From: Hyphomicrobiaceae bacterium | GTDB lineage: Bacteria > Pseudomonadota > Alphaproteobacteria > Rhizobiales > Hyphomicrobiaceae | Length of the DNA: 64,000 bases | Direction: 5' to 3' | Assembly (NCBI GenBank): GCA_039808585.1 | Contig: JBDHTJ010000002.1 | Coordinates: 1,440-65,439 of the forward strand | Shown: positions 42,443 through 64,000 of the stretch, piece after piece | Numbering within the stretch: the first letter of the stretch is position 1 | How the letters are laid out: every line of letters begins with the position of its first letter | The notes under the pieces: model-generated | The model's input: the letters and a program-made list of their open reading frames with translations, nothing else | Databases searched by the model: none | Told to the model about the DNA's origin: nothing | Position numbers and translations under genes: made by a program

Positions 42443-42724
42443 GGAACGCCTCAGTGTGGCCGGCGTCGGCGTTGCTCCGCGTGATCATGCGGAAGCGCCT
42501 GCGGCAGCTCGAAGAACTATTCACCGTCATATACGCGAGTTTGCCTCAAATCTCACCGTCCAAATCTCCGTAACCTTTCCCATCGTTGACCATCATAAAC
42601 GTCTTGTTAATATTTGGGATACGTTCGGCGCCTGCTAGAATTCTTCGTGACGTCCCGGGCCGGCCCCGAAAAATGCGGGCGAGACCGGACGATGAGGTCC
42701 GCAAAAAGTGAAAAGGGCACCGCG

Positions 42725-46190: not shown

Positions 46191-47369
46191 ATGCGCGCAG
46201 AGGCCCAGCAGGGAGCCGAACAGGCTATACCCTTCAATAAGCCTGACTTGACGGACTCCGAGATCGATTACGTCGTCGAGTGCCTGAAGAACGGCAAGAT
46301 CTCTGGCGACGGCCACTTCACCAAGATTTGCCACGACCTGCTTTCCGCCCACTACGGCAATCCTGTCTTGCTTGTCCATTCTTGCACGGCGGCTCTCGAG
46401 ATGTCGGCCCTCCTCGCCGACCTCAAGCCCGGCGACGAAGTAATCATGCCGTCGTTCACATTCGTATCGACCGCGAACGCCGTGGTTCTTCGGGGCGCAG
46501 TGCCGGTCTTCGTGGACATTCGTCCTGATACGCTCAACATCGACGAGACCCTCATCGAGCAGGCGATCACCGACAAGACCCGAGCAATCATGCCCGTCCA
46601 TTATGCGGGTGTTGGCGCTGCCATGCCCGAGATAATGGCTATAGCGCAGCGGCATGGCTTGGTGGTCATTGAAGACGCAGCACAAGGATATGCGGCCAGT
46701 TACGCAGGCAAGCCGCTCGGCACCTTTGGCGCGCTCGGATGTCTCAGCTTTCACGAGACCAAGAACATTGTTTCCGGCGAAGGTGGCGCCCTCATCATAA
46801 ATGATCCGGCACTTAACGATCGCGCGCAATTCATTCGCGAGAAAGGTACCAACCGCACCCAGTTCACGCGGCGGTATGTCACCAAGTACGAGTGGGTCGA
46901 TATCGGTTCGTCGTATCTCCCGAGTGACCTCATCGCCGCGCTACTCCTGGGCCAGTTGCAGCGCGCACCTGCAATCACCCAGCGCCGCCTGGAGATCTGG
47001 CAGCAGTATTTCGCGGGCCTCCAACGGCTGAGGGGACTTGGGATCACACTGCCGACTATTCCCGCCGAAGCGCAGCACAATGGCCACATCTTCTATCTGC
47101 TGTTCCCCAGGCCGGAGCAACAGAAGGCGATGCTGGCAAGACTGGCCACCGACCAGATCTCCGCGACGTCGCACTACGTGCCGCTGCACAACAGTCTGGC
47201 CGGCGTGAAGTTGTCACGCGCTGTGGGCTCCATGGCAGTGACGGAGCGCGCGGGAAGCACGATGGTGCGGCTCCCTATCCATGGCGGCATGACTGATGGC
47301 CAGGTCGAGCGCGTCATCGAGCGCGTCTTGCATCATGCACATGACGAGATGCGCGCGAACACGGTCTAG
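46191..47369 (+). CDS. wecE: dTDP-4-amino-4,6-dideoxygalactose transaminase (WecE/RffA-like, DegT family)
   Basis: IPFNKPDLTDSEIDYVVECLKNGKISGDG...HSCTAALEM...PSFTFVSTANA...SFHETKNIVSGEGGALI...KYEWVDIGSSYLPSD: the WecE-type signature, including the FHETKN lysine. Confidence 0.88.
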   Translation: MRAEAQQGAEQAIPFNKPDLTDSEIDYVVECLKNGKISGDGHFTKICHDLLSAHYGNPVLLVHSCTAALEMSALLADLKPGDEVIMPSFTFVSTANAVVLRGAVPVFVDIRPDTLNIDETLIEQAITDKTRAIMPVHYAGVGAAMPEIMAIAQRHGLVVIEDAAQGYAASYAGKPLGTFGALGCLSFHETKNIVSGEGGALIINDPALNDRAQFIREKGTNRTQFTRRYVTKYEWVDIGSSYLPSDLIAALLLGQLQRAPAITQRRLEIWQQYFAGLQRLRGLGITLPTIPAEAQHNGHIFYLLFPRPEQQKAMLARLATDQISATSHYVPLHNSLAGVKLSRAVGSMAVTERAGSTMVRLPIHGGMTDGQVERVIERVLHHAHDEMRANTV

Positions 47370-48415: not shown

Positions 48416-49050
48416 CTAGCAGCGTTTGCCTCTCAGCATGGACGCCAGAAAGCGAATTGCTTTTCGCGCAACGACGAGCTTCCCCTTGGCATTCAGATGG
48501 CCCCCGTCGCTCGTATACCCCGGGTGAAGAACCTGGAATTCTTCACCACGAAGCATCGCTGTCTCGAACCGTCCATCGGGCCGCAACGCCTCAGCCGCCG
48601 CCAAGTCGAAGATGGCCTCTGCGGGAAACGTCCGACGCAGCAGCTGAGTGTAGGCTGCGCGCTTGGCATTCGCCTCATCCTCCCACACCGCTCTCCCGAT
48701 AAGTCTGAAAATCCGCCACGTAGGCGCGCGCGGATACGCAGTCAGTGGAACCGTGACATGCGCGATGCGCAGCGCCGGATTCAGAGACTTCAAGCCTTCG
48801 AAGATCGAGCCTCGACCTAGCCTCCTGCTGGACGGCCTTCACGATATCATCGGATCTTGGCCCCAGGCGCACCATTGGCACCGCCTCGGAACCGGATAAT
48901 CACACCGTTGAAAGACGACCGCTCGGCTGGGAACTCCGCCCTAGTAATAGCGCCCACCCGGCCATATGCCTTCTCGAGTTGCTGGATGCCGTCAAGAATA
49001 TCATCCCCAACCGAGTGATGCAGGAACAGAATGCGCGCGCGGCTGATCAC
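48416..49050 (-). pseudogene. frameshifted SGNH/GDSL-like hydrolase (or esterase) gene
   Basis: Three consecutive minus ORFs in three frames: 49050..48847 ILFLHHSVGDDILDG..., 48881..48675 ...RSDDIVKAVQQEA..., and 48793..48416 ...LNPALRIAHVTVPLT...GYTSDGGHLNAKGK. They read as one protein if two frameshifts are bridged. The N-terminal HHSVG and C-terminal DGGHLN blocks resemble SGNH blocks I and V. Confidence 0.45.
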
Positions 49051-49110
49051 CTCAAGGTCGCTTCGAAGTTCTTCGACCCCTGCATGTCAGACACTGCGAA
49101 GTAGCCCCGT

Positions 49111-49737
49111 TCATGCGGCAGGATGAGCCGGCTTTTCCTTCCACAGGGCCGCCTGGCGCGCCGGCACTCCCATCACGACCGATCCCGAAGGCAGATCCCG
49201 GATCACAACGGAATTGGGACCCAACACGCAGTCATCCCCAACCGTGACGGCCCCCATAACGCAGGTACCCACCCCAAGCTCGACGCGATTGCCGATAATT
49301 GGCTTTGCATCCAGTTCTGAACGGCTCAGAATTCCCATCGTCGTGTTATGCCGGATATGCACATCGTCGCCAATTGCACGCGCACCCAGCCATATTCCCC
49401 CGTAATGCCAGATGCGCACCCGCCGGCCAAGCCGCGTAGGATAAGGAATGTATATGCCGAGCAGCCAGCTCAGGAATGGATGAACAACCCAGTAAATCAC
49501 GGATAAGGGTGCGCGTAATGGTTTGAAACGGATGTCCATTCTGGCATTTGCAAGCCGGTGCATCGCGATCGCCCAGAAACCTGCCGCGAAGCAATCCTTG
49601 TCGTGCGTCCGAAAGTCCTCCGCCAACAGGGCCCAGAGGCCTAGGCCACTCGGATTCTGGTTTCGATCCCCTTTTGGCATGGGCACATCATGGGATATCA
49701 CGTCCACAGCCGCTGCCATTCCGTCTCCAGCCTGCAT
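49111..49737 (-). CDS. hexapeptide-repeat O-acetyltransferase (serine acetyltransferase/WcaB-like)
   Basis: LWALLAEDFRTH...FWAIAMHRLANA N-terminal helical part, then the LbH repeats IGDDVHIRHNTTMG...IGNRVELGVGTCVMGAVTVGDDCVLGPNSVVIRDLP. The start is uncertain (49737, 49719 or 49680). Confidence 0.8.
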   Translation of the reverse strand: MQAGDGMAAAVDVISHDVPMPKGDRNQNPSGLGLWALLAEDFRTHDKDCFAAGFWAIAMHRLANARMDIRFKPLRAPLSVIYWVVHPFLSWLLGIYIPYPTRLGRRVRIWHYGGIWLGARAIGDDVHIRHNTTMGILSRSELDAKPIIGNRVELGVGTCVMGAVTVGDDCVLGPNSVVIRDLPSGSVVMGVPARQAALWKEKPAHPAA

Positions 49738-49973
49738 AAAGCCCACCCCAAGCTCGCACTCCACGCTTCAGATACTCGATTTGAGCCACACGCACCATCC
49801 GTGCATCGATTTAATCAAACGACAAGGAAAACAAGACGTAACAGTATTACATTCGCTCTTAACTGTTGCACCCGTGACTTCTTCTCAAAACGCCAGCGGA
49901 GGCGTAGATAATCTCGGGGACCGGCCTCGGAGCCAGACCCTTGTTGGGGTGGACGCGGGCCCGCGGGAGAAGC

Positions 49974-51105: not shown

Positions 51106-52389
51106 ATGCGCACCTACCTGATCACGGTCCCCGCACCTGCTCGTCGACTGAGCCCGTCCACCTTCGCGGCGGAGAGCGCATTCGTCCAGCACCTTCGCGA
51201 CTTGAAGCGCGAGCTGGGCCCGACGTGGGGCGAGATGATCGTCGCGATGCCGTGGGCGACAGACGAGGATTGGGCCGCACAGCCGGGGCCAATGGACATC
51301 ATCGATGAGCAGTTGGAGAACATTCGCTACGTTCCACTCTATCGTCACGATGTCGGCAAGCTCGGTTTCCAGTTGGGCTTGCCCAAGCTGCTTCCGCAAA
51401 TCTGGCGCGCGGTTGCTCAGAGTGACTTCGTCCACTCGAACTTCACCCCTGATCTCTATCGACCCGCCGGCGCCTGGATGTGCCTGTTCGCCGTGTTGCA
51501 GGGAAAGAAGGTGCTTGCCGTTGAAGACATGGACCGCAGACGCGACGCCGAAATGAACTACAAGACGGGACGCTGGTCGCGACGCACCTACCTTATCTGC
51601 AAATACATATATGATCCGGCACGCCACCTTCTGCAACGGCTCTACGTCCGCTACCTGGATCTCATGCTCTTCAAGGAGATGGCACAAGTCGAAGACTACG
51701 ATCGAGGCCGCAACAACGTGCGCCTCTTCCTTGATCCAAACTTCTCGGCTGAGGACATCGTCGATGATGCCCGCCTTGCCCGGAAGATGAGCACGCTTGC
51801 GGATCCATCGCGTCCGCTGAGGGCTTTGTATTTCGGCCGCCTGGTCCCCTACAAGGGCGTGGATAAAATGATCGAGGCGGTCGCGATTGCACGGCGAGCG
51901 GGCGCGAACATAACCCTCGACATCATGGGAACGGGTGAACAGGGACCGGCGCTTCGCGAACTTGCGGGGCGCCTCGGCATCGCGGAGCACGTCGCTTGGC
52001 TTGAACCGCGTCCCTATGGGCCAGCCTTTTTCGAAGTGCTGCGCGAAAGAGACGTGCTTCTCGCCTGCCCTCTCTCGGCCGATACGCCGCGCAGCGCATG
52101 GGATGCATTCGCAAGTGGAATGCCGATCGTTGCCTTCGATACACCTTTTTATGTCAGCCTCGGCAAGATCTCGAAAGCCGTTGCCGTCGCCCCCTGGCCT
52201 GACGTGCAGGCACTCGCCGGCAAGCTGGAAGAGCTCGCAAAGAATAAGGCGCAGTTGGCCCTGATGGCGCGTAGTGCCGTGGACACTGCCCGCAAAAACA
52301 CCGGCACGGAATGGCTCAAGCGTCGCGTGGAATGGGTGCAACTCCTCATGGACCAGTCCAAACCCCTCCTCTCACCAGCAAACGCCTGA
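51106..52389 (+). CDS. glycosyltransferase family 4
   Basis: ATG at 51106 (MRTYLITV). C-terminal Glycos_transf_1 pattern LYFGRLVPYKGVDKMIEAV...DIMGTGEQ...ACPLSADTPRSAWDAFASGMPIVAFD. Confidence 0.8.
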   Translation: MRTYLITVPAPARRLSPSTFAAESAFVQHLRDLKRELGPTWGEMIVAMPWATDEDWAAQPGPMDIIDEQLENIRYVPLYRHDVGKLGFQLGLPKLLPQIWRAVAQSDFVHSNFTPDLYRPAGAWMCLFAVLQGKKVLAVEDMDRRRDAEMNYKTGRWSRRTYLICKYIYDPARHLLQRLYVRYLDLMLFKEMAQVEDYDRGRNNVRLFLDPNFSAEDIVDDARLARKMSTLADPSRPLRALYFGRLVPYKGVDKMIEAVAIARRAGANITLDIMGTGEQGPALRELAGRLGIAEHVAWLEPRPYGPAFFEVLRERDVLLACPLSADTPRSAWDAFASGMPIVAFDTPFYVSLGKISKAVAVAPWPDVQALAGKLEELAKNKAQLALMARSAVDTARKNTGTEWLKRRVEWVQLLMDQSKPLLSPANA

Positions 52390-52433
52390 ACTGCTCTTCC
52401 CCTGTCGAAGATGCTGGCAGTCGCAAACTCGTA

Positions 52434-53285
52434 ATGAACTCACGGAAGGAACTGAACGTGGTTTCCATCGAGCAAGAAATAGCAGAAAAGCTGCGCGATG
52501 CCGGAATCTCGGCACATCTGGCAGAGGCACGCCAGATCACTGCGGCGGCCGTGCACGATGATCCCGCCGGCGCAGAAACCATCGCCCGTGATTGGTGTGC
52601 GAAGCGGATCTCCGGGCTGCCTCTCGCATACATCTTGGGGCGGGAGAGATTCATGGGGCTGGAACTTGTCACAGACCCAGGCGCGCTTGTTCCCCGGCCA
52701 GAAACGGAATTGCTCGGCCAAGCTGCCATCCAATTCCTGGAGCAGAACGCGTCCGCAAGCCCCAATGTGATCGACATGTGCTGCGGCTCCGGCAATCTCG
52801 CATGTGCCATCGCGCACCATGTCCCAGGCGCTCGCGTCTGGGCCTCGGACTTGACCGATGGATGTGTGAGCCTTGCCCGTCGGAACGCGACCTACGTCGG
52901 AGTTGACCAGCGCGTACAGGTGTTTCAGGGGGATCTTTTCACAAGCCTGGCCAATCTCGGCCTGGAAGGCACGATCGATCTCATCGTCTGCAACCCGCCC
53001 TACATCTCGCAGGGAAAGCTTGCCTCGGATCGCGCCGAACTCCTTCAGTTCGAACCGCGGGAGGCCTTCGACGGAGGGCCCTACGGCCTCAGCATCCATC
53101 AGCGCGTTATTCGCGAAGCGCTGGCCTACCTGAAACCGGACGCTCCACTTCTGTTCGAGATCGGGCTCGGCCAGGAACGCCAGGTAAAGGCCTTGTTCGA
53201 GAGAACGAAGGCCTACGGGGAAGTCAATTTCGTGACCAATGCAGAAGGTCAGGTGCGCGTCGTCTGGGCACGAAAGTCTGCCTGA
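52434..53285 (+). CDS. HemK/PrmC-family N5-glutamine-type S-adenosylmethionine methyltransferase
   Basis: ATG at 52434. GLPLAYILGRERFMGLELVTDPGALVPRPETE, SAM motif VIDMCCGSGNLA, and catalytic IVCNPPYI. Last gene of the GT61-GT4 + strand unit. Confidence 0.8.
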   Translation: MNSRKELNVVSIEQEIAEKLRDAGISAHLAEARQITAAAVHDDPAGAETIARDWCAKRISGLPLAYILGRERFMGLELVTDPGALVPRPETELLGQAAIQFLEQNASASPNVIDMCCGSGNLACAIAHHVPGARVWASDLTDGCVSLARRNATYVGVDQRVQVFQGDLFTSLANLGLEGTIDLIVCNPPYISQGKLASDRAELLQFEPREAFDGGPYGLSIHQRVIREALAYLKPDAPLLFEIGLGQERQVKALFERTKAYGEVNFVTNAEGQVRVVWARKSA

Positions 53286-53484: not shown

Positions 53485-54510
53485 TCAGGCGGTCCCCACC
53501 ATCGTCAGCGCGTGCTGATGCAGGCCGGCGGCGATGCGCTTCTTGGCAGTGATGTCCTGGAAAGCGCGCTGGGCCTGGTCCTCGCTCAAATTCGTCGCGC
53601 GGCCAGCCTCCTTAGCCGGCACACCGTTCTCGTAGGCGCACAGCATCAGGTCCATCAGGTTGTAGGGGAGCGCGAAGTAGAACTCCTCCTGCGTCTGCGG
53701 CAGGCTGTAGGTGTCGGTCGAGGGCAACTGCGCGCGGATCTCGTCGGGCACGCCCATCTCCTCCGCGAGCTTGTAAACCTGCGTCTTGTAAAGGTGCGCA
53801 ATGGGCTTGATGTCGGCCAGGCCGTCGCCACCGCGCACAAAGAAGCCCAGGTCGTACTCGAGCTTGTTCGGCGTCCCGATCACCGCGTAGTGCAGGCGCT
53901 CGCCGTGATGGTACTCGATAAGCTTGCGCGTGCGCTGCTTCATGTTGGTGGATGCCACGACGGCCAGATACACGGGAAGCGGCATGCGCTTCGTCTCGAG
54001 CTTTCCATCCGGCGACTGCACCGTCAGCGCGAAGTAGTTGACGCGGTCCTGCTTCAAGGCTCCGCCCTCGACGGAGATCTTCATCTTCCAGTCTGGGCCG
54101 AAGCTGGGGAACAGCGTTCGGATGGCTTCGTCGCGCCGGCGGTAGCAGCCCAGCGCCTCCAGTGCAGGCGCGATGTCCTCGACAGCATAGGGCACGCCGA
54201 GCTGCTCGCAGATGAGACGACCCAGCTGCGTGCTCTTGGACGCGGAGTCCTTTTCGGGCATGAGAACCGCAAACACCTTGTCGGCCCCGAACGCCCGCTG
54301 CGCCAGCGTCACGCACACCGCGCTGTCGATGCCACCGCTGACGCCGAGCACGACGCCCTTGCGCTTCAGCCCCCGACCCACAGTCTCCCGCATCCACGCC
54401 TCGATGCGCGCAGCCTCCGCGCTAGGGTCGAAGGCCAGCATCTGCGGCAGGTCTCGGACACTGCTCCAGCTTCTCGGCTCGGCGTTCATGGGTGCTTCCT
54501 CTCGTGTCAT
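53485..54510 (-). CDS. NadE-family PP-loop ATP pyrophosphatase (NAD synthetase-like amidating enzyme)
   Basis: PP-loop VVLGVSGGIDSAVC, ...AVIGTPNKLEYDLGFFVRGGDGLADIKPIAHLYKTQVYKLA. The start ATG at 54510 overlaps the AsnB-like stop (ATGA). An alternative ATG at 54489 has a GAGGAAG RBS. Confidence 0.8.
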   Translation of the reverse strand: MTREEAPMNAEPRSWSSVRDLPQMLAFDPSAEAARIEAWMRETVGRGLKRKGVVLGVSGGIDSAVCVTLAQRAFGADKVFAVLMPEKDSASKSTQLGRLICEQLGVPYAVEDIAPALEALGCYRRRDEAIRTLFPSFGPDWKMKISVEGGALKQDRVNYFALTVQSPDGKLETKRMPLPVYLAVVASTNMKQRTRKLIEYHHGERLHYAVIGTPNKLEYDLGFFVRGGDGLADIKPIAHLYKTQVYKLAEEMGVPDEIRAQLPSTDTYSLPQTQEEFYFALPYNLMDLMLCAYENGVPAKEAGRATNLSEDQAQRAFQDITAKKRIAAGLHQHALTMVGTA

Positions 54511-56513
54511 GATTGGAGGCGATCGACCAGTATGGAAGGCCGCGTCGCTTTCAGGCGTTTGGTTTCGAGCATGGCGGTATGCGGCAGCTCCGAGCGCACC
54601 CACTGGGCCAGGATCTGAAGGCTGAGGATGCCGATGAGAGCCATCTCCTCGCGCTCACCAGGCAACCGCCCTTCGCGAGCCCAGGCTTTTTCTGCCAGCA
54701 TGCGCGCGGGATTGACTTCGATCAGGCCATGTCGCGCAAGCATGTCCGGTGAAAGCAGCTCGCGCACGTAGCCCGGCGAATTGGGCCCGAAGAACGAGGT
54801 GGTGGTCGGCGCGCGATAGGGCTGCTTCGGCCGGGCGCTGATGTCTTGCGGAAGATATCGGGCACCCAGCTTCCGCAGGATCAGCTTGTCCTTGAGCCCG
54901 GACAGCTTCAACCCCGAAGGCAGCCCCGTGGCGAAGGCGATCACTTGCGGATCGAGAAAGGGATACCGCGCCTCCACTCCGTGGCCTAGCGAAACGCGGT
55001 CGCCCTGACAGGACAGAAGATAGGGGCTCATGAACGTTGCGATCTCGACGGCCTGGGCCCGCGCAAGGGGTGACCAGCTGCCAAAGCCCGGCGGCAGGCT
55101 GCCAGCCAATGCAGCCTCGGCCGCACCAGCGTCGGCTTTCGCCAGCACATCCTTGGACAGGAAGCGCGTCGTCCAGGCCGTATTGGCCCATCGCACGGCG
55201 TGCGAATAAAACGGGTTGCCGGTGTCGCTCAGGCCCTTGCGGAAGAACTGCTTCCACATGCGGCCTTCGTGCTGGTCGCTGCTGCCGACGTAGTGATGCA
55301 CCCTCGAGAGAAGCGCCGAGCGCCAGTCCTTCTCGGGCGAGCGGGCCCAGAAGCGCCGGATGGCGTCTTCCTTGAAGATGCTGTAGCCCGCGAAAAGCTC
55401 GTCCGCCCCCTCGCCCGTGAGCACCACCTTGGTGCCGTTGCGGCGCACGAGATCGGAGAGCATGAACAGAGGCACGGGCGACGTGCGCAGCAGCGGCGTT
55501 TCGCAGTGTTTCACCACTTCGGGGAAGCTGCGTGCGATATCCGCGCCAGTCACCATCACCTCGTGGTGGCGTGTCTCCAGCCGTTCCACCATCTGGCGCT
55601 GTTGCGGTGTCTCGTCGAAGGCCGCGTCCTCGAAGCGGATCGAGAAGGTTTCGAGATGGCTCGAACGCGAGCGTTGGATGAGCGAGGTAACGAGTGAAGA
55701 ATCAAGACCGCCGCTCAGGTACGCACCGACCGGCACATCTGCCCTGAGGCGGATCGACACCGCATCCTTCAGGATTGTCTCGAGCTGGTCGACGCCTTCA
55801 TCGAGAGACCTAATCCCGCTTCCGAAGCGGGCAGTGAAATCGGGCTGCCACCACGCCTTGCTTTCGACTTTGTGGTCGCTGTCGATGGTAACGACGTGTC
55901 CAGGCGAAACGCAGGCGACCCCCTTGAACGGTGAGCCCGGAGCCGGCACCGCCCAGCGCGTGAAGATTTCGGTAAGCGCAGTGGCATCGAATTCGGCCGT
56001 GACGCGCTTGCCGGCGAAAATCGCCTTGATCTCGGACGCGAACGCGATGGCACCCGGCGCCTTGGCATAGAACAGCGGCACAATACCGAACTGGTCGCGC
56101 GCAAGCACCAGCTTCTTGGCCCGCGTGTCCCACAACGCCACGGCGAACTGGCCGTTGAACCGTGCCCAGGCACCGTCGCCCCATTGCTCGTAGGCATGCA
56201 CGATGGCTTCAGTATCCGACCGCGTGCGAAAGACGTGGCCCGCCGCCTCGAGCTCGGTGCGCAGCTCCAGATAGTTGAAGATCTCGCCGTTGAACGTGAT
56301 CCAGAGGCTCTCGTCCTCGTTCGTCATCGGCTGGGCACCACCGGACAGATCGATGATGCTCAGGCGCGCATGCGCAAGCCCGGCACGGCCGTCGCGATAG
56401 ATGCCGTAGCCATCCGGGCCGCGGTGGCCGAGCATGGCCACCATGGCTTCCAGTTCCGACACGCGCGGTGGCGCGGCGTTGGCCGATACGAAAAGGCCGG
56501 CGATACCGCACAC
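54507..56513 (-). CDS. asparagine synthase (glutamine-hydrolysing) family amidotransferase
   Basis: GTG at 56513 followed by CGIAGLF (N-terminal nucleophile Cys), with a GGAGAG RBS upstream. HRGPDG, ITFNGEIFNY, and the PP-loop AYLSGGLDSSLV. The ORF track start at 56696 is rejected. Confidence 0.88.
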   Translation of the reverse strand: MCGIAGLFVSANAAPPRVSELEAMVAMLGHRGPDGYGIYRDGRAGLAHARLSIIDLSGGAQPMTNEDESLWITFNGEIFNYLELRTELEAAGHVFRTRSDTEAIVHAYEQWGDGAWARFNGQFAVALWDTRAKKLVLARDQFGIVPLFYAKAPGAIAFASEIKAIFAGKRVTAEFDATALTEIFTRWAVPAPGSPFKGVACVSPGHVVTIDSDHKVESKAWWQPDFTARFGSGIRSLDEGVDQLETILKDAVSIRLRADVPVGAYLSGGLDSSLVTSLIQRSRSSHLETFSIRFEDAAFDETPQQRQMVERLETRHHEVMVTGADIARSFPEVVKHCETPLLRTSPVPLFMLSDLVRRNGTKVVLTGEGADELFAGYSIFKEDAIRRFWARSPEKDWRSALLSRVHHYVGSSDQHEGRMWKQFFRKGLSDTGNPFYSHAVRWANTAWTTRFLSKDVLAKADAGAAEAALAGSLPPGFGSWSPLARAQAVEIATFMSPYLLSCQGDRVSLGHGVEARYPFLDPQVIAFATGLPSGLKLSGLKDKLILRKLGARYLPQDISARPKQPYRAPTTTSFFGPNSPGYVRELLSPDMLARHGLIEVNPARMLAEKAWAREGRLPGEREEMALIGILSLQILAQWVRSELPHTAMLETKRLKATRPSILVDRLQS

Positions 56514-56532
56514 GGGTGGTGCTCTCCAGATC

Positions 56533-58098
56533 TCAGACGGTGGCGACTGCGGCGGGAGCAGCAAGCTCCTTCTTGGCGATCTTGCCCGTCGTCGTCTTCG
56601 GGATGCTGTCGCGGATCTCCACGTGCTTCGGCACGAGATGGCTTTCGAGATGCTCCCGGCAATGCTTGCGGATCGCGGCCTCGTCGAGCGTGGCACCCTC
56701 GCGCGCCACGACGATCGCCTTCACCGCCATGCCGTCGATTGCGTCCTCGACCCCCACGACGGCGGCTTCCACCACCTCGGGAATGGCATAGAGGACGTGC
56801 TCGATCTCCTTCGGGCTCACCTTCTCGCCGCGGCACTTGAAGATCTCGTCCGTGCGGCCGACGAAATAGACAAAGCCCTCGCTATCCATCCAGAACTGGT
56901 CGCCGGAGTGCAGCACCATCTCGCCCTCGATCTCGCCGGGCTTCAGCCGCTTCGCGGTCTCTTCGGGCTTGCCCCAATAGCCGCGCATGACGTTGGCGCC
57001 ACGGATCACGAGTTCGCCGACCACGCCGGGCGCAACGCGCTTGCCCTTCTCATCGACTACATAGATTTCCGAGTTCGGCATGGCCTTGCCCACCGAGCCG
57101 ATCTTGTCGTTGAGGCGTTCGGGCTCGAGGTAGCACACGCGCGTGCACTCGGTGAGACCGTACATCGAGAAGATCAGCGTCTCCGGGAAGAGCTCCTGCA
57201 TGCGCTTGATGTGTGCAGGCGGAAGCGCTGCCGCGGTATTGCTCATGTAGCGCAGCGAAGGCAGATGCGCCCTGCTGAATTTCTCGAGTTGCAGCAGGCG
57301 CGCGAATACGGTCGGCACGCCGGGCAAGCCCGTCACCTTGTGCTCGATCATCTTCTTCAGCATTTCGAACGGGAATGCGAACGACTTCTCCAGAACGACG
57401 GTGAAGCCGATCCGAGCGCCCGTGATTACCTGGTACATGCCATAGTCGAACGACAACGGCAGCACCGTCATCACAACATCGTCGGGCGTGTTGCGCAGAT
57501 AGGTGGAGATGGCCCACGCCGTGTTGGTCATGTTGCGGTGGGTGAGCATGACACCCTTCGGGTTCCCCGTGGAACCCGAGGTGTAGATGATGGTGCAGAG
57601 GTCGATGTCGATCAGTCCCACGGGCGCAGGCGCACGACGTGGCCCGGACAGGATGTCTGCAAGGGTACGACCCGCGGGACCCGAGGTCGGCGCGCCGTGG
57701 GACCAGATATAGCCCGCGACGCTTGCCGCCGCATCGGCAACCTCGGCCACGACGGGGGCGAGGTTCGTCTGCGCCACGACCACCTTCACGCGGCAATCAT
57801 CGAGCAGATAAAGCAGTTTCTCGGCCTTCGTGGTCGCGTTGACATTCACGAAGACCGCGCCGGCCTTCAGCGTTGCGAAGACGGCCGTCACGAGTTCGAT
57901 CGAGTTATCGAGGAAAATGGCAACCCGATCGCCGCGCCCCACGCCCATATCCTGAAGGGTCGAGGCAAGCACGTCGCTGTCGCGATCGAGCGCACCGAAC
58001 GTGATCGACTTGTCACCGGCGATGATGGCGGTGTGCTCGGGGCGCCTGGCCGCCGTATGCACGAGGAAATCGTGAACGAAATTCGGACCGCCGCTCAT
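56533..58098 (-). CDS. AMP-dependent synthetase/ligase (adenylate-forming, acyl- or aminoacyl-carrier loading type)
   Basis: A3 IIYTSGSTGNPKGVMLTHRN, LSFDYGMYQ, A5 MYGLTE, A7-A8 SGDQFWMDSEGFVYFVGRTDE, A10 PKTTTGKI. Its start overlaps the ACP stop (ATGA). Confidence 0.88.
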   Translation of the reverse strand: MSGGPNFVHDFLVHTAARRPEHTAIIAGDKSITFGALDRDSDVLASTLQDMGVGRGDRVAIFLDNSIELVTAVFATLKAGAVFVNVNATTKAEKLLYLLDDCRVKVVVAQTNLAPVVAEVADAAASVAGYIWSHGAPTSGPAGRTLADILSGPRRAPAPVGLIDIDLCTIIYTSGSTGNPKGVMLTHRNMTNTAWAISTYLRNTPDDVVMTVLPLSFDYGMYQVITGARIGFTVVLEKSFAFPFEMLKKMIEHKVTGLPGVPTVFARLLQLEKFSRAHLPSLRYMSNTAAALPPAHIKRMQELFPETLIFSMYGLTECTRVCYLEPERLNDKIGSVGKAMPNSEIYVVDEKGKRVAPGVVGELVIRGANVMRGYWGKPEETAKRLKPGEIEGEMVLHSGDQFWMDSEGFVYFVGRTDEIFKCRGEKVSPKEIEHVLYAIPEVVEAAVVGVEDAIDGMAVKAIVVAREGATLDEAAIRKHCREHLESHLVPKHVEIRDSIPKTTTGKIAKKELAAPAAVATV

Positions 58099-58352
58099 GC
58101 CGCCTTCCCTGCAACCTTGCGCGAGACGAATGTCGCGATACGCTCGATGGAATCGAGGTTCTCAGGCACCAACTCTTCATCGGCGATGGAAATGCCGAAC
58201 TCACTCTCGAGATACATCACGAGGTCCATTGCGCCGGTAGAATCGATGATTCCGAGTTCCAGGAGAGAGTCCGCACGCGGTATCTCTGCCTTCTCGTCGA
58301 ACAAGAGATTCTTGGCGATGTAGGCTGTGATCTGCTGTTCCAATTGCTGCAT
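58095..58352 (-). CDS. acyl/peptidyl carrier protein
   Basis: ATG at 58352. 85 aa. ...SLLELGIIDSTGAMDLVMYLESEFGI carries the phosphopantetheine-Ser context (DS-x-G). Confidence 0.8.
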   Translation of the reverse strand: MQQLEQQITAYIAKNLLFDEKAEIPRADSLLELGIIDSTGAMDLVMYLESEFGISIADEELVPENLDSIERIATFVSRKVAGKAA

Positions 58353-58477: not shown

Positions 58478-59350
58478 TTAATCTTTGCCCTGCGAAATGC
58501 GCACGCTGGCGCTCATTCCAGGTTTCAGCATCATGTCCTGGTTATCGACCTCGAGGACGACCTTGTAGTGGACCTCGCCGTTGATGGTCTCGGGCTCGTT
58601 GCGCACCTGAACAACCTTCGCGTTGAACGCTTTCCTCGGAAAAGCCTTGGCCGTGCATGCGCCATTGTCTCCCGGCTTGATGCCTGCGACTTCCGCTTCC
58701 TTAACGTTCGCGACGAGCTTCAGCTTCTTCAGGTCGCTCGCGACGACGAACAGCGTTGGCGTCTGGAGCGTTGCCGCGATCGTCTCCCCTGGTTCAACGC
58801 GCCGGGCGAGAACCGTCCCGTCCACCGGCATGACGATATTCGTGTAATTGAGATTGAGCTCGGCTCCATCCAACTCCGCCTTGCGCAAGTCGATGTTCGC
58901 CTTGTCCACCACGATCTGCGCCTTGCCCTGCTCGAATGTCGAGGTGATACCCTCGAAAACGCTTCGCGAGACGACCCCCTTTTCGAAGAGGGCCTTGTTC
59001 CTCTCGTAGGCGGCCTGCGCCTGCACCAGCGCTGCTTCGTGCAGCACGAGTTGCGCCCGGGCACTCTCGAGCGCAGCTCTTGCCTGTTCGACCGTGCGCT
59101 GGAACCGCCGCGGATCAATGCGCGCGCACACCTGGCCCTTTTTCACGCTGGCGTTGTAATCGCAATCGACGCTTTCGACGATGCCCGAGACGTAGCTTCC
59201 CACCACCACCGTCTGAAGCGGCTCCAGCACGCCATTGGCGGTGACTTGAGCATGTACACCCGGTGCCATTACGAGCGGGCAGAGAAGCGCTCCAAGGGCT
59301 GCCATCGCGGCGCGCGATCCGCACAGGCGCAGAGAGTTGGTCATCGGCAT
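58478..59350 (-). CDS. HlyD-family periplasmic adaptor (membrane fusion protein)
   Basis: ATG at 59350. Signal/anchor region AAMAALGALLCPLVMAPGVHA, a lipoyl-like segment VVGSYVSGIVESVDCDYNASVKKGQVCARID, a coiled-coil hairpin, then YTNIVMPVDGTVLARRVEPGE and a beta-barrel end. No cognate pump gene is adjacent. Confidence 0.75.
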   Translation of the reverse strand: MPMTNSLRLCGSRAAMAALGALLCPLVMAPGVHAQVTANGVLEPLQTVVVGSYVSGIVESVDCDYNASVKKGQVCARIDPRRFQRTVEQARAALESARAQLVLHEAALVQAQAAYERNKALFEKGVVSRSVFEGITSTFEQGKAQIVVDKANIDLRKAELDGAELNLNYTNIVMPVDGTVLARRVEPGETIAATLQTPTLFVVASDLKKLKLVANVKEAEVAGIKPGDNGACTAKAFPRKAFNAKVVQVRNEPETINGEVHYKVVLEVDNQDMMLKPGMSASVRISQGKD

Positions 59351-59457
59351 ATCGATATGCTCCCGGCCGCGACGCGGCCATTTTGAAACGACGGCCTTCA
59401 AAAAACACGCAACATGCGTGCGAAATCGAGACACTCGGGCCGCGCTCATTAAAATCG

Positions 59458-60210
59458 CTAGGTCGTGCTCGTGCGCGGAAGCATATCGAGCGCGAAGAGG
59501 TAGAATATGCGCGGACATTCGATCAGGTAGCGCCTTGCAAGGCGGCGCGGATCCGAAAGCAGGCGATAGGCCCATTCGAGGCTGGAACGCTGCATCCATT
59601 CAGGCGCCCGCCGCTGCTTCCCCGTCAGGAAGTCGATCGAGGCCCCAATGCAAAGCCCGACCCCTTTGGCCTCAGGCCGTTCACCAATGCGTCGCGCCAG
59701 GATCTCCTGCTGGGGCATACCGACAGCAAGGAATACCAGGTCCGAGGCTGCGTCCACTACGAAATCGATGCATTTCGCCACCTCGGCATCCGAGCGGACG
59801 AAGTTCATCGGGGGCGCATAATGGGCGATCCTGAGTTCAGGATAGCGCCGCGATAGCTTTACGACCTCGTCCGTCGACGAGCCGATCACGGTCACCGTGA
59901 GGCGCAGGCGGGAGGCCTCGGGCATCAGGGCGGCCGTGAGATCGCTACCCGCAATCACAGGCAGATCGAGCCCGCGCAAACGGGCCAGGCGGCTGAGGAT
60001 GCGACTGTCGCAGAAGACCCCCCAGGCACTGTCGTAGGCCCGGCGCAGATCCTGCCCATCCTCGTGCAGCCTCACCATGTGATGCACGTTCGGCGTAACG
60101 ATGAAGCGAAACCCGCTCTTTGTGGAAGCGAGAATCTCTTCGACAGCCTCAGCAAGGACGAGCCGATCGAAGTCCTGGCTCAGAAAGCGAACTTTGTGGC
60201 GGTTACGCAT
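59458..60210 (-). CDS. WecB/TagA/CpsF family glycosyltransferase (GT26)
   Basis: FIVTPNVHHMV..., VIGSSTDEV..., LVFLAVGMPQQEILA..., GASIDFLTGKQRRAPEWMQRSSLEWAYRLLSDPRRL: the GT26 signature. Confidence 0.85.
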   Translation of the reverse strand: MRNRHKVRFLSQDFDRLVLAEAVEEILASTKSGFRFIVTPNVHHMVRLHEDGQDLRRAYDSAWGVFCDSRILSRLARLRGLDLPVIAGSDLTAALMPEASRLRLTVTVIGSSTDEVVKLSRRYPELRIAHYAPPMNFVRSDAEVAKCIDFVVDAASDLVFLAVGMPQQEILARRIGERPEAKGVGLCIGASIDFLTGKQRRAPEWMQRSSLEWAYRLLSDPRRLARRYLIECPRIFYLFALDMLPRTSTT

Positions 60211-60504: not shown

Positions 60505-60915
60505 TCAACCAGCCACCGGCAGCACCATCTGCGTCTGGGTCACGACGGCGCACAGCTTGCCCGCCTCGGACCGGATCGACGTCTGCCAGACCTGCGTAGA
60601 CTTGCCCTTGTGCAGGGGAACAGCCTCTGCGGTGACGACCGTACCGACCGGGGCTGCCCCCATGAAGTTGGTCTTGGACTCGATTGTCGTCGTGCGGGTG
60701 TTGGGCGGCAGGTTCACCACAGTGCCAACGGCCCCAATGGTGTCGGCAAACGCCATGAAGGCCCCCCCGTGCAACACGCCTCCGGCCGTACACAAGTCGG
60801 GACGCACCTTCATCGTGGCGATGATACGGTCCGGAACGGCCTGCTTGATCTCGATGCCCAGCAATCCCGGGAGAAGCGGAGCAAAAAGGGCTTGGATCTG
60901 ATCGATTGTGGGCAT
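60505..60915 (-). CDS. PaaI-family hotdog-fold thioesterase
   Basis: 136 aa. ...LLGIEIKQAVPDRIIATMKVRPDLCTAGGVLHGGAFMAFADTIGAV...TTIESKTNFM... is the PaaI/YigI pattern. Confidence 0.8.
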   Translation of the reverse strand: MPTIDQIQALFAPLLPGLLGIEIKQAVPDRIIATMKVRPDLCTAGGVLHGGAFMAFADTIGAVGTVVNLPPNTRTTTIESKTNFMGAAPVGTVVTAEAVPLHKGKSTQVWQTSIRSEAGKLCAVVTQTQMVLPVAG

Positions 60916-61405: not shown

Positions 61406-61846
61406 CTACGCTCCTTCCATAGCGAGCCGTAGCGCCTTCGGGATCCGTTGCGCCCTTCCGCCTGAGATAAATGCTACCCGCACGCGGGCCGCGACCAAAA
61501 GATCGTCTCCGCGTCGACATTCCTGCAGCAGGGTAATCGATGCGCCCTTGACCTCTGCGGGGATTGTGATGACATCAAGCAAGTCGTCCAAGGCCGCTGG
61601 TTTTAGGAAATCGATTGTCATTGAACGGACAACGAAGGCGAAGCTTGGCGCATCGTCGTGCGCTTCTTTGAGTAGCTCCCGCTGATTGGTCCCGAGCAGA
61701 CGCAGGTAATTCGTTCTTCCCCGTTCCATGAAGCGCAAGAAATTGGCGTGATAAACAATCTGGCCGGCGTCCGTATCTTCGAAATAGACGCGGACCTGCA
61801 TATGATGGCGACCGTCGCGAATTTCTCCGTCAAGAGATGTTGTCAC
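61406..61846 (-). CDS. YbgC/4HBT-type acyl-CoA thioesterase (hotdog fold)
   Basis: VRVYFEDTDAGQIVYHANFLRFMERGRTNYLRLLG...FVVRSMTIDFLKPAALDDLLDV. The likely start is GTG at 61846 or ATG at 61801. The ORF track start at 61981 overlaps the pAgo 3' end and crosses an AT-rich gap. Confidence 0.8.
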   Translation of the reverse strand: MTTSLDGEIRDGRHHMQVRVYFEDTDAGQIVYHANFLRFMERGRTNYLRLLGTNQRELLKEAHDDAPSFAFVVRSMTIDFLKPAALDDLLDVITIPAEVKGASITLLQECRRGDDLLVAARVRVAFISGGRAQRIPKALRLAMEGA

Positions 61847-61922
61847 AGAAATATCCACTTGTTGTATATCGGGAACTAATTGACTCGGATCATTATTCTG
61901 GCTCGCGGTTGGCCAGTCGACG

Positions 61923-63341: not shown

Positions 63342-64000
63342 GCTCGGGCTCTCCCCGAGAAAGCTGTGACATCGCCCAGCCTGAAGGCCGCATTCACACC
63401 AGTGCTGATTCCAAGCGCCGGAAGGTCGCGCTGCGGGGACGCGAACAGCATCGACCAAAACTCGAGCAAGGCATTGAGCGCAGGATTGTAGCGTCTCACA
63501 ATCCGTTCGCGCGCGAAATCGGTGGCGGCGGCCCTGTTCTCCCTTGTAAGTCCTTCGAATACGGTGCGCGGCTCGAGCAGAAGCCAAAGCCGCTCATCCA
63601 CCCAATCCAGCCTGATCCCCACGCCTTCTTTCCATTTTAGTTCGGGTTGCTTCGGCACCAATCCACCTAGACTTCCGGTCAGCTTCCTCAGCGGCGCCCA
63701 TTTTTCGTCATCAACGGAGGTCGGCGTCAACAGGTCGGCGCCTCTGCGACGGGCAGCGATCATCCGATGTTCGCGGGTGAGAGCTCGGGTCAGTGCTTCG
63801 CGGAGAAGGCCCCGTTCGTGACTATCGTAACGCAGCCGCCGGGTTTCAATTGAATGCAGATCGAAGCTTTCGATCTCATATGCGGAAAGGACTGCTCTGA
63901 TATCGGCGTCAGCACCGAAGGCCAGCACGCCTGCTTTCGAACGGGTGCCAATGACCGGCAGGCCCGACGCTTCGATTGCCGACTTGATTTCCGCCACGCC
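63338..64000 (-). CDS. C-terminal part of pAgo partner protein (APAZ-like domain); the N-terminal effector lies outside the window
   Basis: The minus frame is open from the window edge to TGA at 63338 (at least 220 codons). ...KWKEGVGIRLDWVDERLWLLLEPRTVFEG...FARERIVRRYNPALNALLEFW... has the look of APAZ C-terminal regions of SIR2/TIR/Mrr-APAZ proteins. Stop and start overlap with pAgo. This is a partial gene. Confidence 0.6.
   Translation of the reverse strand, partial: GVAEIKSAIEASGLPVIGTRSKAGVLAFGADADIRAVLSAYEIESFDLHSIETRRLRYDSHERGLLREALTRALTREHRMIAARRRGADLLTPTSVDDEKWAPLRKLTGSLGGLVPKQPELKWKEGVGIRLDWVDERLWLLLEPRTVFEGLTRENRAAATDFARERIVRRYNPALNALLEFWSMLFASPQRDLPALGISTGVNAAFRLGDVTAFSGRARA

What the first reader, a model, noticed from the sequence alone, without database searches (positions are those of the whole stretch)
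53485..58352. Tightly coupled ACP / adenylating ligase / AsnB-like / NadE-like operon inside the polysaccharide locus
Seen in the sequence: four minus-strand genes are joined by ATGA, 19-nt and ATGA junctions.
- A carrier protein (IIDSTGAMDL).
- An adenylate-forming ligase (YTSGSTGNPKG ... PKTTTGKI).
- A class-II glutamine amidotransferase of the asparagine-synthase family (GTG-Cys start, SGGLDSS PP-loop).
- A second PP-loop amidating enzyme of the NAD-synthetase family (SGGIDSA).

Established knowledge, from memory of TIGRFAM descriptions and not verifiable here: ACP plus AMP-ligase plus AsnB-type amidotransferase sets are catalogued as functionally unexplained accessory genes of exosortase-A/PEP-CTERM EPS loci.

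In this window there is no exosortase. The set carries an extra NadE-like enzyme, which I do not recall as part of that module.

Inference: a carrier-tethered acyl or aminoacyl unit is built and/or carboxylates are amidated twice. The product probably decorates the amino sugar made by WecE or a uronic acid. The chemistry is not predictable from the sequence.
Basis: partly seen in the sequence, partly recalled or inferred. Interest (0 to 1): 0.65.

Follow-up and report, generated by a model that had tools for sequence, protein, structure and literature searches.

The report
Four-gene carrier-protein amidation cassette
The four genes are real. They form an uncharacterised module found in many bacterial phyla, in which an acid carried on a small carrier protein is probably amidated and used to decorate a surface sugar polymer; the gene labelled "NAD synthase" is a fixed part of this module and not the cell's NAD enzyme.

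Summary
Observation confirmed. On the minus strand, ACP (58352-58095), ligase (58098-56533), AsnB-like (GTG 56513-54507) and NadE-like (54510 or 54489-53485) are joined by an ATGA overlap, a 19-nt gap and a second ATGA overlap.

This is not a chance juxtaposition. Of 81 loci from more than 12 phyla that carry this NadE-like subfamily (NF002048/PRK00876), 64 also have ACP, ligase and AsnB within 9 kb, in 14 different gene orders. Most of the other 17 are cut by contig ends.

The NadE-like gene is therefore a defining member, not an extra. In Sinorhizobium meliloti the same cassette lies on pSymB, which can be cured. A chromosomal nadE (smc00161) is the gene assigned to NAD synthesis there.

It is not the exosortase-A set. 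The ligase and AsnB score below the TIGR03098 and TIGR03108 cut-offs, and no exosortase or decarboxylase was found.

The ligase pocket (D235, Y236, T301, invariant R330) resembles VinN. The same code occurs in relatives paired with a DAP-decarboxylase-like enzyme. This points to an amino-dicarboxylate tethered by its distal carboxyl.

Likely role: an amidated, sometimes N-methylated, acyl decoration for a glycan amine; in this window a WecE 4-amino sugar is the candidate. Which carboxylates the two enzymes amidate is unresolved. No literature on the module was found.

The parts
58095..58352 (-). Stand-alone acyl/aminoacyl carrier protein, 85 aa; phosphopantetheine Ser in DSTG
   Evidence: PF00550 30.8 bits. 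The DS pair is invariant in 63/63 homologues. Present near the NadE-like gene in 73/81 loci.
56533..58098 (-). Adenylate-forming ligase, 521 aa, closer to NRPS A-domains than to fatty-acid ligases. Pocket code DYYPSTMRV-K in GrsA numbering.
   Evidence: AMP-binding 334 bits. Best NCBIfam hit is TIGR03098 at 469.7 bits, below the 592 cut-off; TIGR01733 scores 288. Best PDB hits are the LgrA A-domain at 310 bits and VinN at 224 bits. R330 and M322 are invariant in 68/70 homologues.
54507..56513 (-). Glutamine-hydrolysing AsnB-family amidotransferase, 668 aa. GTG start then Cys; PP-loop SGGLDSS.
   Evidence: TIGR01536 493 bits against a cut-off of 267; TIGR03108 424 bits against a cut-off of 817. 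Cys, RGPDG, NGEIFN and SGGLDSS are conserved in the family. Best PDB hit is 7ylz, a hydroxyamidotransferase.
53485..54510 (-). NadE-like PP-loop amidating enzyme of subfamily NF002048/PRK00876. No glutaminase domain. Family-specific insertion of about 65 residues. Alternative start at 54489.
   Evidence: NF002048 463 bits against a cut-off of 313. The match to solved NadE is split in two around residues 113-180. The AlphaFold model has pLDDT 84.5 and places three beta-strands in the insertion; NadE structures are the best fold matches, with TM-score on the target 0.76-0.85 among the top matches.
52311..53285 (+). HemK/PrmC-like N-methyltransferase (CNPPY motif), divergent from the cassette. 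The true start is probably downstream, near 52434.
   Evidence: TIGR03534 207.4 bits against a cut-off of 199.1. 55-71% identical to the methyltransferases next to the cassette in Mesorhizobium and in L088. Linked in 21/81 loci, and only alongside D235-type ligases: 18 of 30 D235-type loci against 0 of 38 others.
49111..49764 (-). Hexapeptide-repeat acyltransferase; a candidate transfer enzyme in this clade
   Evidence: PF00132; CysE/EpsC/WcaB-like, below cut-offs. 68% identical to the one in the closest relative L088. Adjacent to F280 genes in 7 of 11 F280 loci.
48416..49086 (-). Decayed remnant of the 'F280' accessory family (SGNH-like motifs). Split over two frames and lacking the CYVD block and the N-terminus.
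   Evidence: One public assembly differs by 1 nt at 48872.
46191..47369 (+). WecE-type dTDP-4-amino-4,6-dideoxyhexose transaminase. It makes the amino sugar that is the candidate acceptor.
   Evidence: NF008687 526.8 bits against a cut-off of 375. Pfam hits for RmlA and RmlD-type genes lie at 29.7-32.0 kb; two further ORFs up to 33.2 kb, which I take for RmlB and RmlC, were not scanned.

Best explanation
The four genes are one biosynthetic module. It builds an amidated acyl or aminoacyl unit on a carrier protein, for attachment to a glycan.

Step 1 (inferred from motifs): the ligase adenylates a small acid that carries a second, free carboxylate, and thioesterifies it to the holo-ACP. In this window's subtype the acid is most likely an amino-dicarboxylate such as aspartate or glutamate, held by its distal carboxyl as in VinN/VinL.

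Step 2 (inferred from family chemistry): the AsnB-like enzyme uses glutamine and ATP to turn the exposed carboxylate into a carboxamide. Where related ligase/ACP sets have a PLP decarboxylase that removes this carboxylate, this module amidates it.

Step 3 (inferred, least certain): the NadE-like PP-loop enzyme uses ATP and free ammonia for a second amidation. The target could be the same unit or its acceptor. It does not serve NAD synthesis.

Step 4 (inferred from neighbours): an acyltransferase moves the unit to an amine of a sugar. In about half of the loci this is a roughly 370-aa GNAT-like protein. In this window the candidates are the hexapeptide transferase as enzyme and the WecE-made 4-amino-4,6-dideoxyhexose as acceptor.

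Step 5 (inferred): the HemK/PrmC-like enzyme N-methylates the carboxamide.

Shown here: the gene structure, the catalytic motifs, the conserved linkage of the four genes, and the non-essentiality of the orthologous replicon in S. meliloti.
For: - Coupled junctions.
- All catalytic motifs are conserved across the family: AsnB Cys1 and SGGLDSS, ACP DS, NadE-like SGGxDS and GFFV(K/R)xGDGxAD.
- 64 of 81 loci from more than 12 phyla keep all four genes within 9 kb, in 14 gene orders.
- Glycan-assembly genes lie within 10 kb in at least 47 of 80 loci.
- Recurrent accessory genes fit delivery to an amine: a GNAT-like 370-aa protein in 37/81 loci, a polysaccharide deacetylase in 13/81, HemK-like in 21/81.
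- Ligase pocket: R330 and M322 are invariant. D235, Y236 and T301 parallel VinN's D230, F231, S299 and K330/R331, which bind 3-methylaspartate as a beta-amino acid.
- The same code, DYYPTTMRC, occurs in a Rahnella ligase next to an ACP-sized ORF and a DAP-decarboxylase-like enzyme whose best hit is TIGR03099. A Gemmobacter ligase next to a carrier protein has the near-identical DYHPSTMRC, but no decarboxylase was seen in the stretch fetched.
- Precedent for VinN-VinL-VinO: PMC11284099.
- Precedent for an AsnB homologue amidating a carrier-pathway dicarboxylate: OxyD (PMC6164072).
Against: - No biochemical or genetic data exist for any member that I could find.
- A tethered dicarboxylate has only one free carboxylate, so the need for two amidating enzymes is unexplained.
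- D235 is present in only 32/70 ligases, so the substrate is not the same everywhere.
- This window lacks the GNAT-like partner, and its F280 partner is decayed.
- In some genomes (S. meliloti, L086, L087) the cassette is not directly next to glycosyltransferases.
- The pocket residues were placed by motif-anchored alignment, using GrsA numbering from memory.
- The HemK/D235 association is not corrected for phylogeny.
Confidence: 0.5

Rival explanations
1. The set is a member of the exosortase-A (XrtA)/PEP-CTERM accessory genes (ligase_PEP_1, ACP, eps_aminotran_1), here without its exosortase.
For: TIGR03098 is the ligase's best NCBIfam hit and TIGR03108 is AsnB's second best. The EPS context fits.
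Against: Both scores are well below the curated cut-offs: 469.7 against 592, and 424 against 817. No exosortase appears in the scanned window ORFs or in the Pfam-annotated relatives. No PLP decarboxylase lies beside the ligase. The NadE-like partner is near-universal here.
Confidence: 0.08
2. The NadE-like gene is the ordinary housekeeping NAD synthetase, merely parked beside three polysaccharide genes.
For: It passes the NF002048 'NAD(+) synthase' cut-off and keeps the NadE fold and the GFFxxxGDGxAD motif. Identity is high (about 60%) across phyla.
Against: - It is linked to ACP, ligase and AsnB in 64/81 loci in shuffled orders. Classical NadE genes (27-28% identical) recovered in the same scan have none of these neighbours.
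- It lies on plasmids or chromids in 117 records.
- In S. meliloti it is on pSymB. The only single-copy essential genes there are engA and tRNA-Arg, and the replicon was cured (PMC4207669).
- The chromosomal smc00161 is the gene assigned to the NAD synthase reaction (PMC5929573 supplement).
- It has a 65-residue insertion absent from solved NadE structures.
Confidence: 0.03
3. The cassette makes a free small molecule or a lipid head group (an amidated amino-acid derivative) that is not attached to a polysaccharide.
For: The operon stands alone in S. meliloti, next to sugar-transporter and aldo/keto reductase genes. In L087 it lies next to lepA. No glycan genes were detected within 10 kb in 33 of 80 loci. 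The ACP's best, weak NCBIfam hit is an ornithine-lipid ACP: 50 bits against a cut-off of 130.
Against: Most loci are glycan loci. The recurrent partners are a deacetylase, GNAT-like proteins, Wzx and glycosyltransferases. In S. meliloti the HemK-like and GNAT-like pair sits 11 kb away inside a Wzx/GumC/deacetylase/GT4 cluster. No condensation, thioesterase or reductase release enzyme is conserved with the set.
Confidence: 0.2
4. Two independent functions: ACP and ligase supply an acyl group, while AsnB-like and NadE-like amidate uronic acids of the sugar chain, as WbpS-type enzymes are thought to do.
For: AsnB-family enzymes are proposed to make uronamides in O-antigens (from memory). An NDP-uronic acid loosely resembles NaAD, with a carboxylated ring linked through a diphosphate to a nucleoside (inference).
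Against: UDP-sugar dehydrogenase genes are near the cassette in only a handful of loci. Four genes that stay together through 14 rearranged orders argue for one pathway. None was found among the window ORFs scanned with Pfam.
Confidence: 0.15

Closest known systems
Exosortase-A (XrtA)/PEP-CTERM-associated ligase (TIGR03098), decarboxylase (TIGR03099), ACP and amidotransferase (TIGR03108)
   Same: Nearest profile families for the ligase and a near one for AsnB. Both are found in EPS loci, both have a stand-alone ACP, and both are functionally uncharacterised.
   Different: Scores are below the cut-offs. There is no exosortase and no decarboxylase. A NadE-like enzyme is a fixed member. It looks like a sister system in which the exposed carboxylate is amidated instead of removed.
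VinN-VinL-VinO starter-unit pathway of vicenistatin (and FlvN with aspartate)
   Same: A stand-alone adenylating enzyme loads an amino-dicarboxylate on a stand-alone ACP through the carboxyl beta to the amine. The tethered unit is then tailored at its free alpha-carboxylate. Pocket residues are parallel: D, an aromatic, S/T and a basic residue.
   Different: VinO decarboxylates, whereas here the partners are amidating enzymes. The destination is a polyketide in vicenistatin but probably a glycan here. Identity to VinN is modest (224 bits).
OxyD (AsnB homologue) making the malonamate starter of oxytetracycline
   Same: An asparagine-synthetase homologue amidates the free carboxylate of a dicarboxylate destined for a carrier-protein pathway.
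   Different: Polyketide context. No dedicated ligase and no NadE-like partner.
NH3-dependent NAD+ synthetase NadE
   Same: The same PP-loop fold and the ATP/adenylate motifs; it passes the NF002048 model.
   Different: 20-24% structure-aligned identity (27-28% in tblastn matches). A 65-residue beta-insertion. Obligate linkage to ACP, ligase and AsnB. Dispensable replicon in S. meliloti.
Carrier-protein routes to N-acyl groups of amino sugars: Vibrio cholerae O1 RfbKLMNO (tetronate on perosamine) and butirosin BtrI/J/K/H. Both from memory, not checked here.
   Same: An ACP plus an activating enzyme inside a sugar-pathway cluster. The tethered acid is tailored and then transferred to a sugar amine.
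   Different: The tailoring enzymes differ (reductase, dehydrogenase or decarboxylase). None has the AsnB plus NadE-like pair.
Peptidoglycan amidation: MurT/GatD making D-isoglutamine, and AsnB-type LtsA/AsnB1 amidating meso-DAP. From memory.
   Same: ATP-dependent amidation of the free alpha-carboxylate of an omega-linked acidic amino acid in a cell-envelope polymer.
   Different: Those enzymes act on lipid-linked muropeptides, with no carrier protein. Apart from AsnB1/LtsA, the enzyme families differ.

Membership tests
XrtA/PEP-CTERM accessory set | Ligase scores above the TIGR03098 trusted cut-off (592.35) | tested here: not met
   469.7 bits. The S. meliloti orthologue scores 456.7.
XrtA/PEP-CTERM accessory set | Amidotransferase scores above the TIGR03108 cut-off (816.9) | tested here: not met
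   424.4 bits.
XrtA/PEP-CTERM accessory set | Exosortase gene in the locus | tested here: not met
   No exosortase family among about 44 window ORFs scanned with Pfam, nor in the precomputed Pfam lists of five related contigs. The rest of the genome is not testable.
XrtA/PEP-CTERM accessory set | PLP decarboxylase (TIGR03099) next to the ligase (feature recalled from the TIGRFAM description) | tested here: not met
   None in the window. A TIGR03099-like decarboxylase sits three genes upstream of a 40%-identical ligase, in the same gene run, in Rahnella.
NAD+ synthetase (NadE) | PP-loop NAD_synthase domain and fold | tested here: met
   PF02540 161 bits; NF002048 463 bits against a cut-off of 313. 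The best fold matches are NadE structures.
NAD+ synthetase (NadE) | Architecture of characterised enzymes: about 250-280 aa, or fused to a glutaminase | tested here: not met
   334-341 aa with an insertion of about 65 residues containing three beta-strands; no glutaminase domain.
NAD+ synthetase (NadE) | Is the genome's NAD-forming enzyme | not testable with these tools
   The window's genome is not available. For the S. meliloti orthologue the published data argue against it.
NAD+ synthetase (NadE) | Converts NaAD to NAD | not testable with these tools
   Needs an enzyme assay.
Asparagine synthetase B family (class II amidotransferase plus PP-loop) | N-terminal Cys nucleophile, GATase and Asn_synthase domains, SGGxDS loop | tested here: met
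   GTG-TGC start. TIGR01536 493 bits against a cut-off of 267. Motifs are conserved in 59-65 of 65 homologues.
Asparagine synthetase B family | Makes free asparagine | not testable with these tools
   Context argues for another substrate. It has a C-terminal extension of about 110 aa compared with E. coli AsnB (554 aa profile).
Stand-alone adenylating enzyme plus carrier protein (VinN/VinL- or DltA/DltC-type) | ANL core motifs with the catalytic Lys, and an adjacent carrier protein with a DS Ser | tested here: met
VinN-type beta-amino-dicarboxylate recognition | D at 235, a bulky aromatic at 236, S/T at 301, a basic residue at 330/331 | tested here: inconclusive
   The window has D, Y, T and R. 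Positions were set by motif-anchored alignment with GrsA numbering from memory. The length of the beta13-beta14 loop was not assessed. D235 is present in only 32/70 family members.
HemK/PrmC N5-glutamine methyltransferase | Score above the TIGR03534 cut-off, and an NPPY motif | tested here: met
   207.4 bits against 199.1. CNPPY is in the translation. Whether it methylates release factors cannot be tested here. Its linkage to the cassette in 21/81 loci suggests another substrate.

The most novel reading that the evidence does not exclude
The whole NF002048/PRK00876 'NAD(+) synthase' subfamily has more than 8000 database proteins and is annotated as nadE in thousands of genomes. On this reading it is not an NAD synthetase. 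It would be the signature enzyme of an undescribed, phylum-spanning pathway that works on a carrier-protein-tethered acidic amino acid. Together with an AsnB-type enzyme it would produce an alpha-carboxamide, or even an amidine, head group. A PrmC-like enzyme would N-methylate that group, and it would be installed on envelope glycans.
Probability: 0.35. Interest if true: 0.72.

Novelty: new variant of a known kind. Interest (0 to 1): 0.6.

Why it matters
- A very common, highly conserved gene family is probably mis-named as NAD synthase. This affects metabolic reconstructions of many genomes.
- The module would define a new way of decorating bacterial surface polysaccharides, and so their charge, antigenicity, and floc or biofilm behaviour. 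The window's organism comes from activated sludge.
- It suggests what the long-unexplained ligase/ACP genes of exosortase-A loci do: tether an amino-dicarboxylate for tailoring.
- The cassette is on pSymB of S. meliloti 1021 and in Azospirillum, so the question can be tested directly in tractable model strains.

Tried and rejected
- Exact-sequence look-ups of the window's own proteins found no contig.
- Megablast to plasmids gave only short 73-77% matches inside nadE.
- Eight literature searches for the gene combination, for S. meliloti nadE2 and for guessed locus tags found no paper on the module. The guessed tags are taurine genes.
- The ornithine-lipid OlsH/OlsI lead from the ACP's best hit was dropped, because the score is far below the cut-off.
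- The promoter/terminator scan was uninformative.
- The VinN primary paper and the pSymB genome paper are not held.
- Pfam and NCBIfam give nothing for the F280 family or the GNAT-like 370-aa family beyond weak GNAT hits.
- Removing the 1-nt difference seen in run X2 does not restore the F280 reading frame, so I treat it as a decayed gene and not as a simple sequencing error.
- I considered a RiPP or protein-modification role, because of the PrmC-like and lasso-cyclase-like hits. I set it aside because no conserved precursor gene appeared among ORFs of 80 aa or more. Shorter peptides were not screened.
- I considered AsnB acting as the glutaminase for the NadE-like enzyme. I rejected this because AsnB keeps its own intact synthetase PP-loop.

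Full report
**Observation**

- An 85-aa carrier protein runs from ATG 58352 and contains IIDSTGAMDL.
- Its stop overlaps the ligase start as ATGA at 58098-58095.
- The 521-aa ligase ends at 56533.
- Nineteen bases containing GGAGAG follow.
- A GTG at 56513 followed by TGC opens a 668-aa AsnB-type protein.
- Its stop at 54509-54507 overlaps an ATG at 54510 as ATGA. The protein database starts the last gene at a second ATG, 54489 (P0001).

Profile searches confirm the identities.
- ACP: PP-binding.
- Ligase: AMP-binding plus AMP-binding_C.
- AsnB-like: GATase_7 plus Asn_synthase; TIGR01536 493 bits against a cut-off of 267.
- NadE-like: NAD_synthase; NF002048/PRK00876 463 bits against a cut-off of 313.

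**Context in the window**

The window is chromosomal: gyrA, beta-oxidation genes and a LIV transporter lie at 0-20 kb. A Wzx/Wzy polysaccharide locus runs from about 28 to 60 kb. In order it contains:
- a WbaP-like initiating transferase;
- RmlA and RmlD-type genes. Two adjacent ORFs that I take for RmlB and RmlC were not scanned;
- Wza, Wzx, Wzz and Wzy;
- several GT2 and GT4 genes;
- a WecE-type 4-amino-4,6-dideoxyhexose transaminase (NF008687 527 bits against a cut-off of 375);
- a hexapeptide acyltransferase, a GT61 and a GT4;
- a divergent HemK/PrmC-like methyltransferase;
- the cassette;
- a MacA/HlyD-like adaptor and a WecG-type transferase.

No exosortase family appeared in about 44 ORFs scanned with Pfam. 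Public runs holding the sequence are activated-sludge and wastewater metagenomes. The closest relative of the NadE-like protein (85% identity) is from a Hyphomicrobiales MAG.

**The cassette is a conserved module**

A protein search with the NadE-like protein returned at least 8000 relatives. The best 120 are 58-85% identical and come from several phyla.

A scan of one genome per GTDB species, using an alignment of these proteins, gave 80 loci. I added plasmid and contig loci. I then searched the flanks with tblastn and with HMMs built from the loci themselves.

Results for the 81 loci that carry this NadE-like subfamily:
- 73 have the ACP, 72 the ligase and 71 the AsnB within 9 kb.
- 64 have all four genes.
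- Most of the other 17 are cut by a contig end. About seven look like real exceptions, for example L065 with the NadE-like gene alone and L028 and L075 without AsnB.
- The four genes occur in 14 different orders. The commonest is AsnB-ACP-ligase-NadE (20 loci). The window's order occurs in 12.
- The six classical NadE genes caught by the same scan (27-28% identity) have none of these neighbours.

The taxa include Alpha-, Beta- and Gammaproteobacteria, Myxococcota, Planctomycetota, Gemmatimonadota, Acidobacteriota, Bacteroidota, Ignavibacteriota, Verrucomicrobiota, Zixibacteria, Actinomycetota, Chloroflexota and Bacillota. Linkage that survives this much rearrangement indicates one function.

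**Is the NadE-like gene a housekeeping gene?**

In the plasmid collection the protein is encoded on 117 plasmids or chromids: Sinorhizobium 76, Azospirillum 12, Ensifer 9, Mesorhizobium 8 and Shinella 8, among others. The ligase shows almost the same distribution.

S. meliloti 1021 carries asnB-ACP-ligase-nadE on pSymB. Identities to the window's proteins are 44, 43, 51 and 57%.
- Published work shows that the only single-copy essential genes on pSymB are engA and tRNA-Arg, and that the whole replicon can be removed (PMC4207669).
- The Tn-seq-based core metabolic model assigns the NAD synthase reaction to the chromosomal smc00161 (PMC5929573 supplement).

So in that organism the orthologue is not the NAD synthetase the cell depends on. 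Structurally the protein keeps the NadE core and its motifs: SGGxDS and GFFV(K/R)xGDGxAD are invariant. It carries a conserved insertion of about 65 residues, with three beta-strands and an Arg-rich CYRRRD stretch, that solved NadE structures lack. It has no glutaminase domain. For the window's own genome the test could not be run.

**Relation to the exosortase-A set**

The ligase's best profile is TIGR03098 and AsnB's second best is TIGR03108. Both are far below the curated cut-offs (469.7 against 592; 424 against 817). The same holds for the S. meliloti proteins. No exosortase is present in the window ORFs scanned or in five Pfam-annotated related contigs. There is no PLP decarboxylase, which I recall from the TIGRFAM description as the invariable neighbour of that ligase. 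I therefore do not file the cassette under that system. It is, however, the nearest relative.

**What the ligase probably loads**

The ligase is nearer to NRPS adenylation domains than to fatty-acid ligases.
- TIGR01733 scores 288 bits.
- PDB hits: the LgrA A-domain at 310 bits, VinN at 224, malonyl-CoA synthetase at 216 and oxalate-CoA ligase at 198.

I placed the specificity positions by anchoring on the core motifs. Across 70 family members M322 and R330 are invariant (68/70) and Y236 is nearly so. Position 235 is Asp in 32 and a small residue (G/S/A/V/T) in most of the rest. It covaries with 301 (Thr with Asp, Ala otherwise). The window's code is DYYPSTMRV.

A review of A-domain structures states how VinN binds 3-methylaspartate as a beta-amino acid. 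It uses D230 for the amine, the bulky F231 and S299, and K330/R331 in the beta13-beta14 loop (PMC11253843). The window's D, Y, T and R sit at the equivalent places. VinN loads the acid on the stand-alone ACP VinL. The PLP enzyme VinO then removes the free carboxylate (PMC11284099).

A 40%-identical ligase on a Rahnella plasmid has the same code (DYYPTTMRC). It lies in one gene run with an ACP-sized ORF and with a DAP-decarboxylase-like enzyme three genes upstream, whose best profile is the exosortase-associated TIGR03099. A Gemmobacter ligase next to a carrier protein has the near-identical DYHPSTMRC, but no decarboxylase was seen in the stretch fetched.

From this I infer that the D-type ligases, including the window's, tether an amino-dicarboxylate by its distal carboxyl. 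This would leave an alpha-amino-acid head exposed. On that reading, sister systems decarboxylate the head and this cassette amidates it. The non-D ligases probably take an analogue without the amine.

**The two amidating enzymes**

AsnB-like keeps its N-terminal Cys, the glutaminase motifs and the PP-loop. OxyD gives a precedent for an AsnB homologue amidating a dicarboxylate that enters a carrier-protein pathway (PMC6164072).

The NadE-like enzyme should adenylate a carboxylate and use free ammonia. A singly tethered dicarboxylate offers only one free carboxylate, so the second amidation is unexplained. It may act on the acceptor, for example a uronic acid. It may act on a different intermediate. 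It may carry the amide further. This is the weakest part of the model.

**Delivery and further tailoring**

No fifth gene is universal. The recurrent partners are:
- a roughly 370-aa protein with weak GNAT similarity, in 37/81 loci;
- a HemK/PrmC-like methyltransferase, in 21/81;
- a polysaccharide deacetylase, in 13/81;
- a roughly 280-aa family with no Pfam match, which I call F280, in 11/81. It has SGNH-like motifs and an N-terminal membrane anchor.

Glycan-assembly genes lie within 10 kb in at least 47 of 80 loci. In S. meliloti the HemK-like and GNAT-like pair is 11 kb from the cassette, inside a Wzx/GumC/deacetylase/GT4 cluster.

The HemK-like gene occurs only alongside D235-type ligases: 18 of 30 such loci against 0 of 38 others (Fisher p = 7e-9, not corrected for phylogeny). 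The window's copy passes the PrmC model narrowly (207.4 bits against 199.1). PrmC methylates a glutamine carboxamide, so a carboxamide made by the cassette is a plausible substrate.

The window lacks the GNAT-like protein. It has the hexapeptide transferase next to a decayed F280 copy. The same pair is intact in the closest relative L088 and adjacent in 7 of 11 F280 loci.

**Comparison and novelty**

The parts belong to known enzyme families. The logic resembles known carrier-protein routes to unusual acyl groups. The combination of ACP, ligase, AsnB and PRK00876-type NadE-like enzyme as a conserved unit was not found in eight literature searches of the available library. Annotation pipelines name the genes generically. 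I rate it a new variant of a known kind. Confidence is moderate for the general mechanism and low for the exact chemistry.

Noticed in passing
window 61923-63587 (-) and 63338-63997 (-): A short prokaryotic Argonaute (PADLOC pAgo_I, 659 bits) lies next to the C-terminal part of a SIR2-PNTD partner (178 bits), whose gene runs off the window end. This is a short-pAgo defence pair just beyond the polysaccharide locus. Pfam gave no hit for either protein.
   Followed up: partly
window 48416-49086 (-): A decayed copy of an uncharacterised family of about 280 aa (motifs HxSVG and DGGHLN; membrane anchor in intact homologues) that accompanies the cassette in 11 loci. It is split over two frames and lacks the KxCYVD block and the N-terminus. 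One public assembly has one base fewer at 48872, and other assemblies break there.
   Followed up: yes
L089/L090 (S. meliloti pSymB, nt about 1,450,600 in NC_003078.1) and L091: The model strain S. meliloti 1021 carries the cassette as a stand-alone operon near minCDE. The HemK-like and GNAT-like pair lies 11 kb away, beside an uncharacterised Wzx/GumC/deacetylase/GT4/glycoside-hydrolase cluster.
   Followed up: partly
L092 (Rahnella aquatilis HX2 plasmid PRA1) and L093 (Gemmobacter fulvus p1): Ligases with nearly the same pocket code sit in a different cluster. In Rahnella it holds an ACP-sized ORF, KAS III genes, acyl-CoA dehydrogenases, further AMP-ligases and a DAP-decarboxylase-like enzyme. 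No decarboxylase was seen in the Gemmobacter stretch fetched. This looks like an uncharacterised natural-product pathway using the same starter acid.
   Followed up: partly
window 58478-59599 (-): A MacA/HlyD-type periplasmic adaptor lies directly upstream of the cassette, with a 125-nt gap. No ABC or RND partner gene is nearby. A terminator-like hairpin at 59421-59405 separates it from the WecG gene.
   Followed up: no
window 42614-44461 (+): A 615-aa ORF in the middle of the polysaccharide locus has no Pfam, NCBIfam or PADLOC match.
   Followed up: no
window 60505-60915 (-) and 61406-61981 (-): Two hotdog-fold (4HBT) thioesterase genes lie just downstream of the locus. They could act on acyl-ACP or acyl-CoA, but were not seen to co-occur with the cassette elsewhere.
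   Followed up: no
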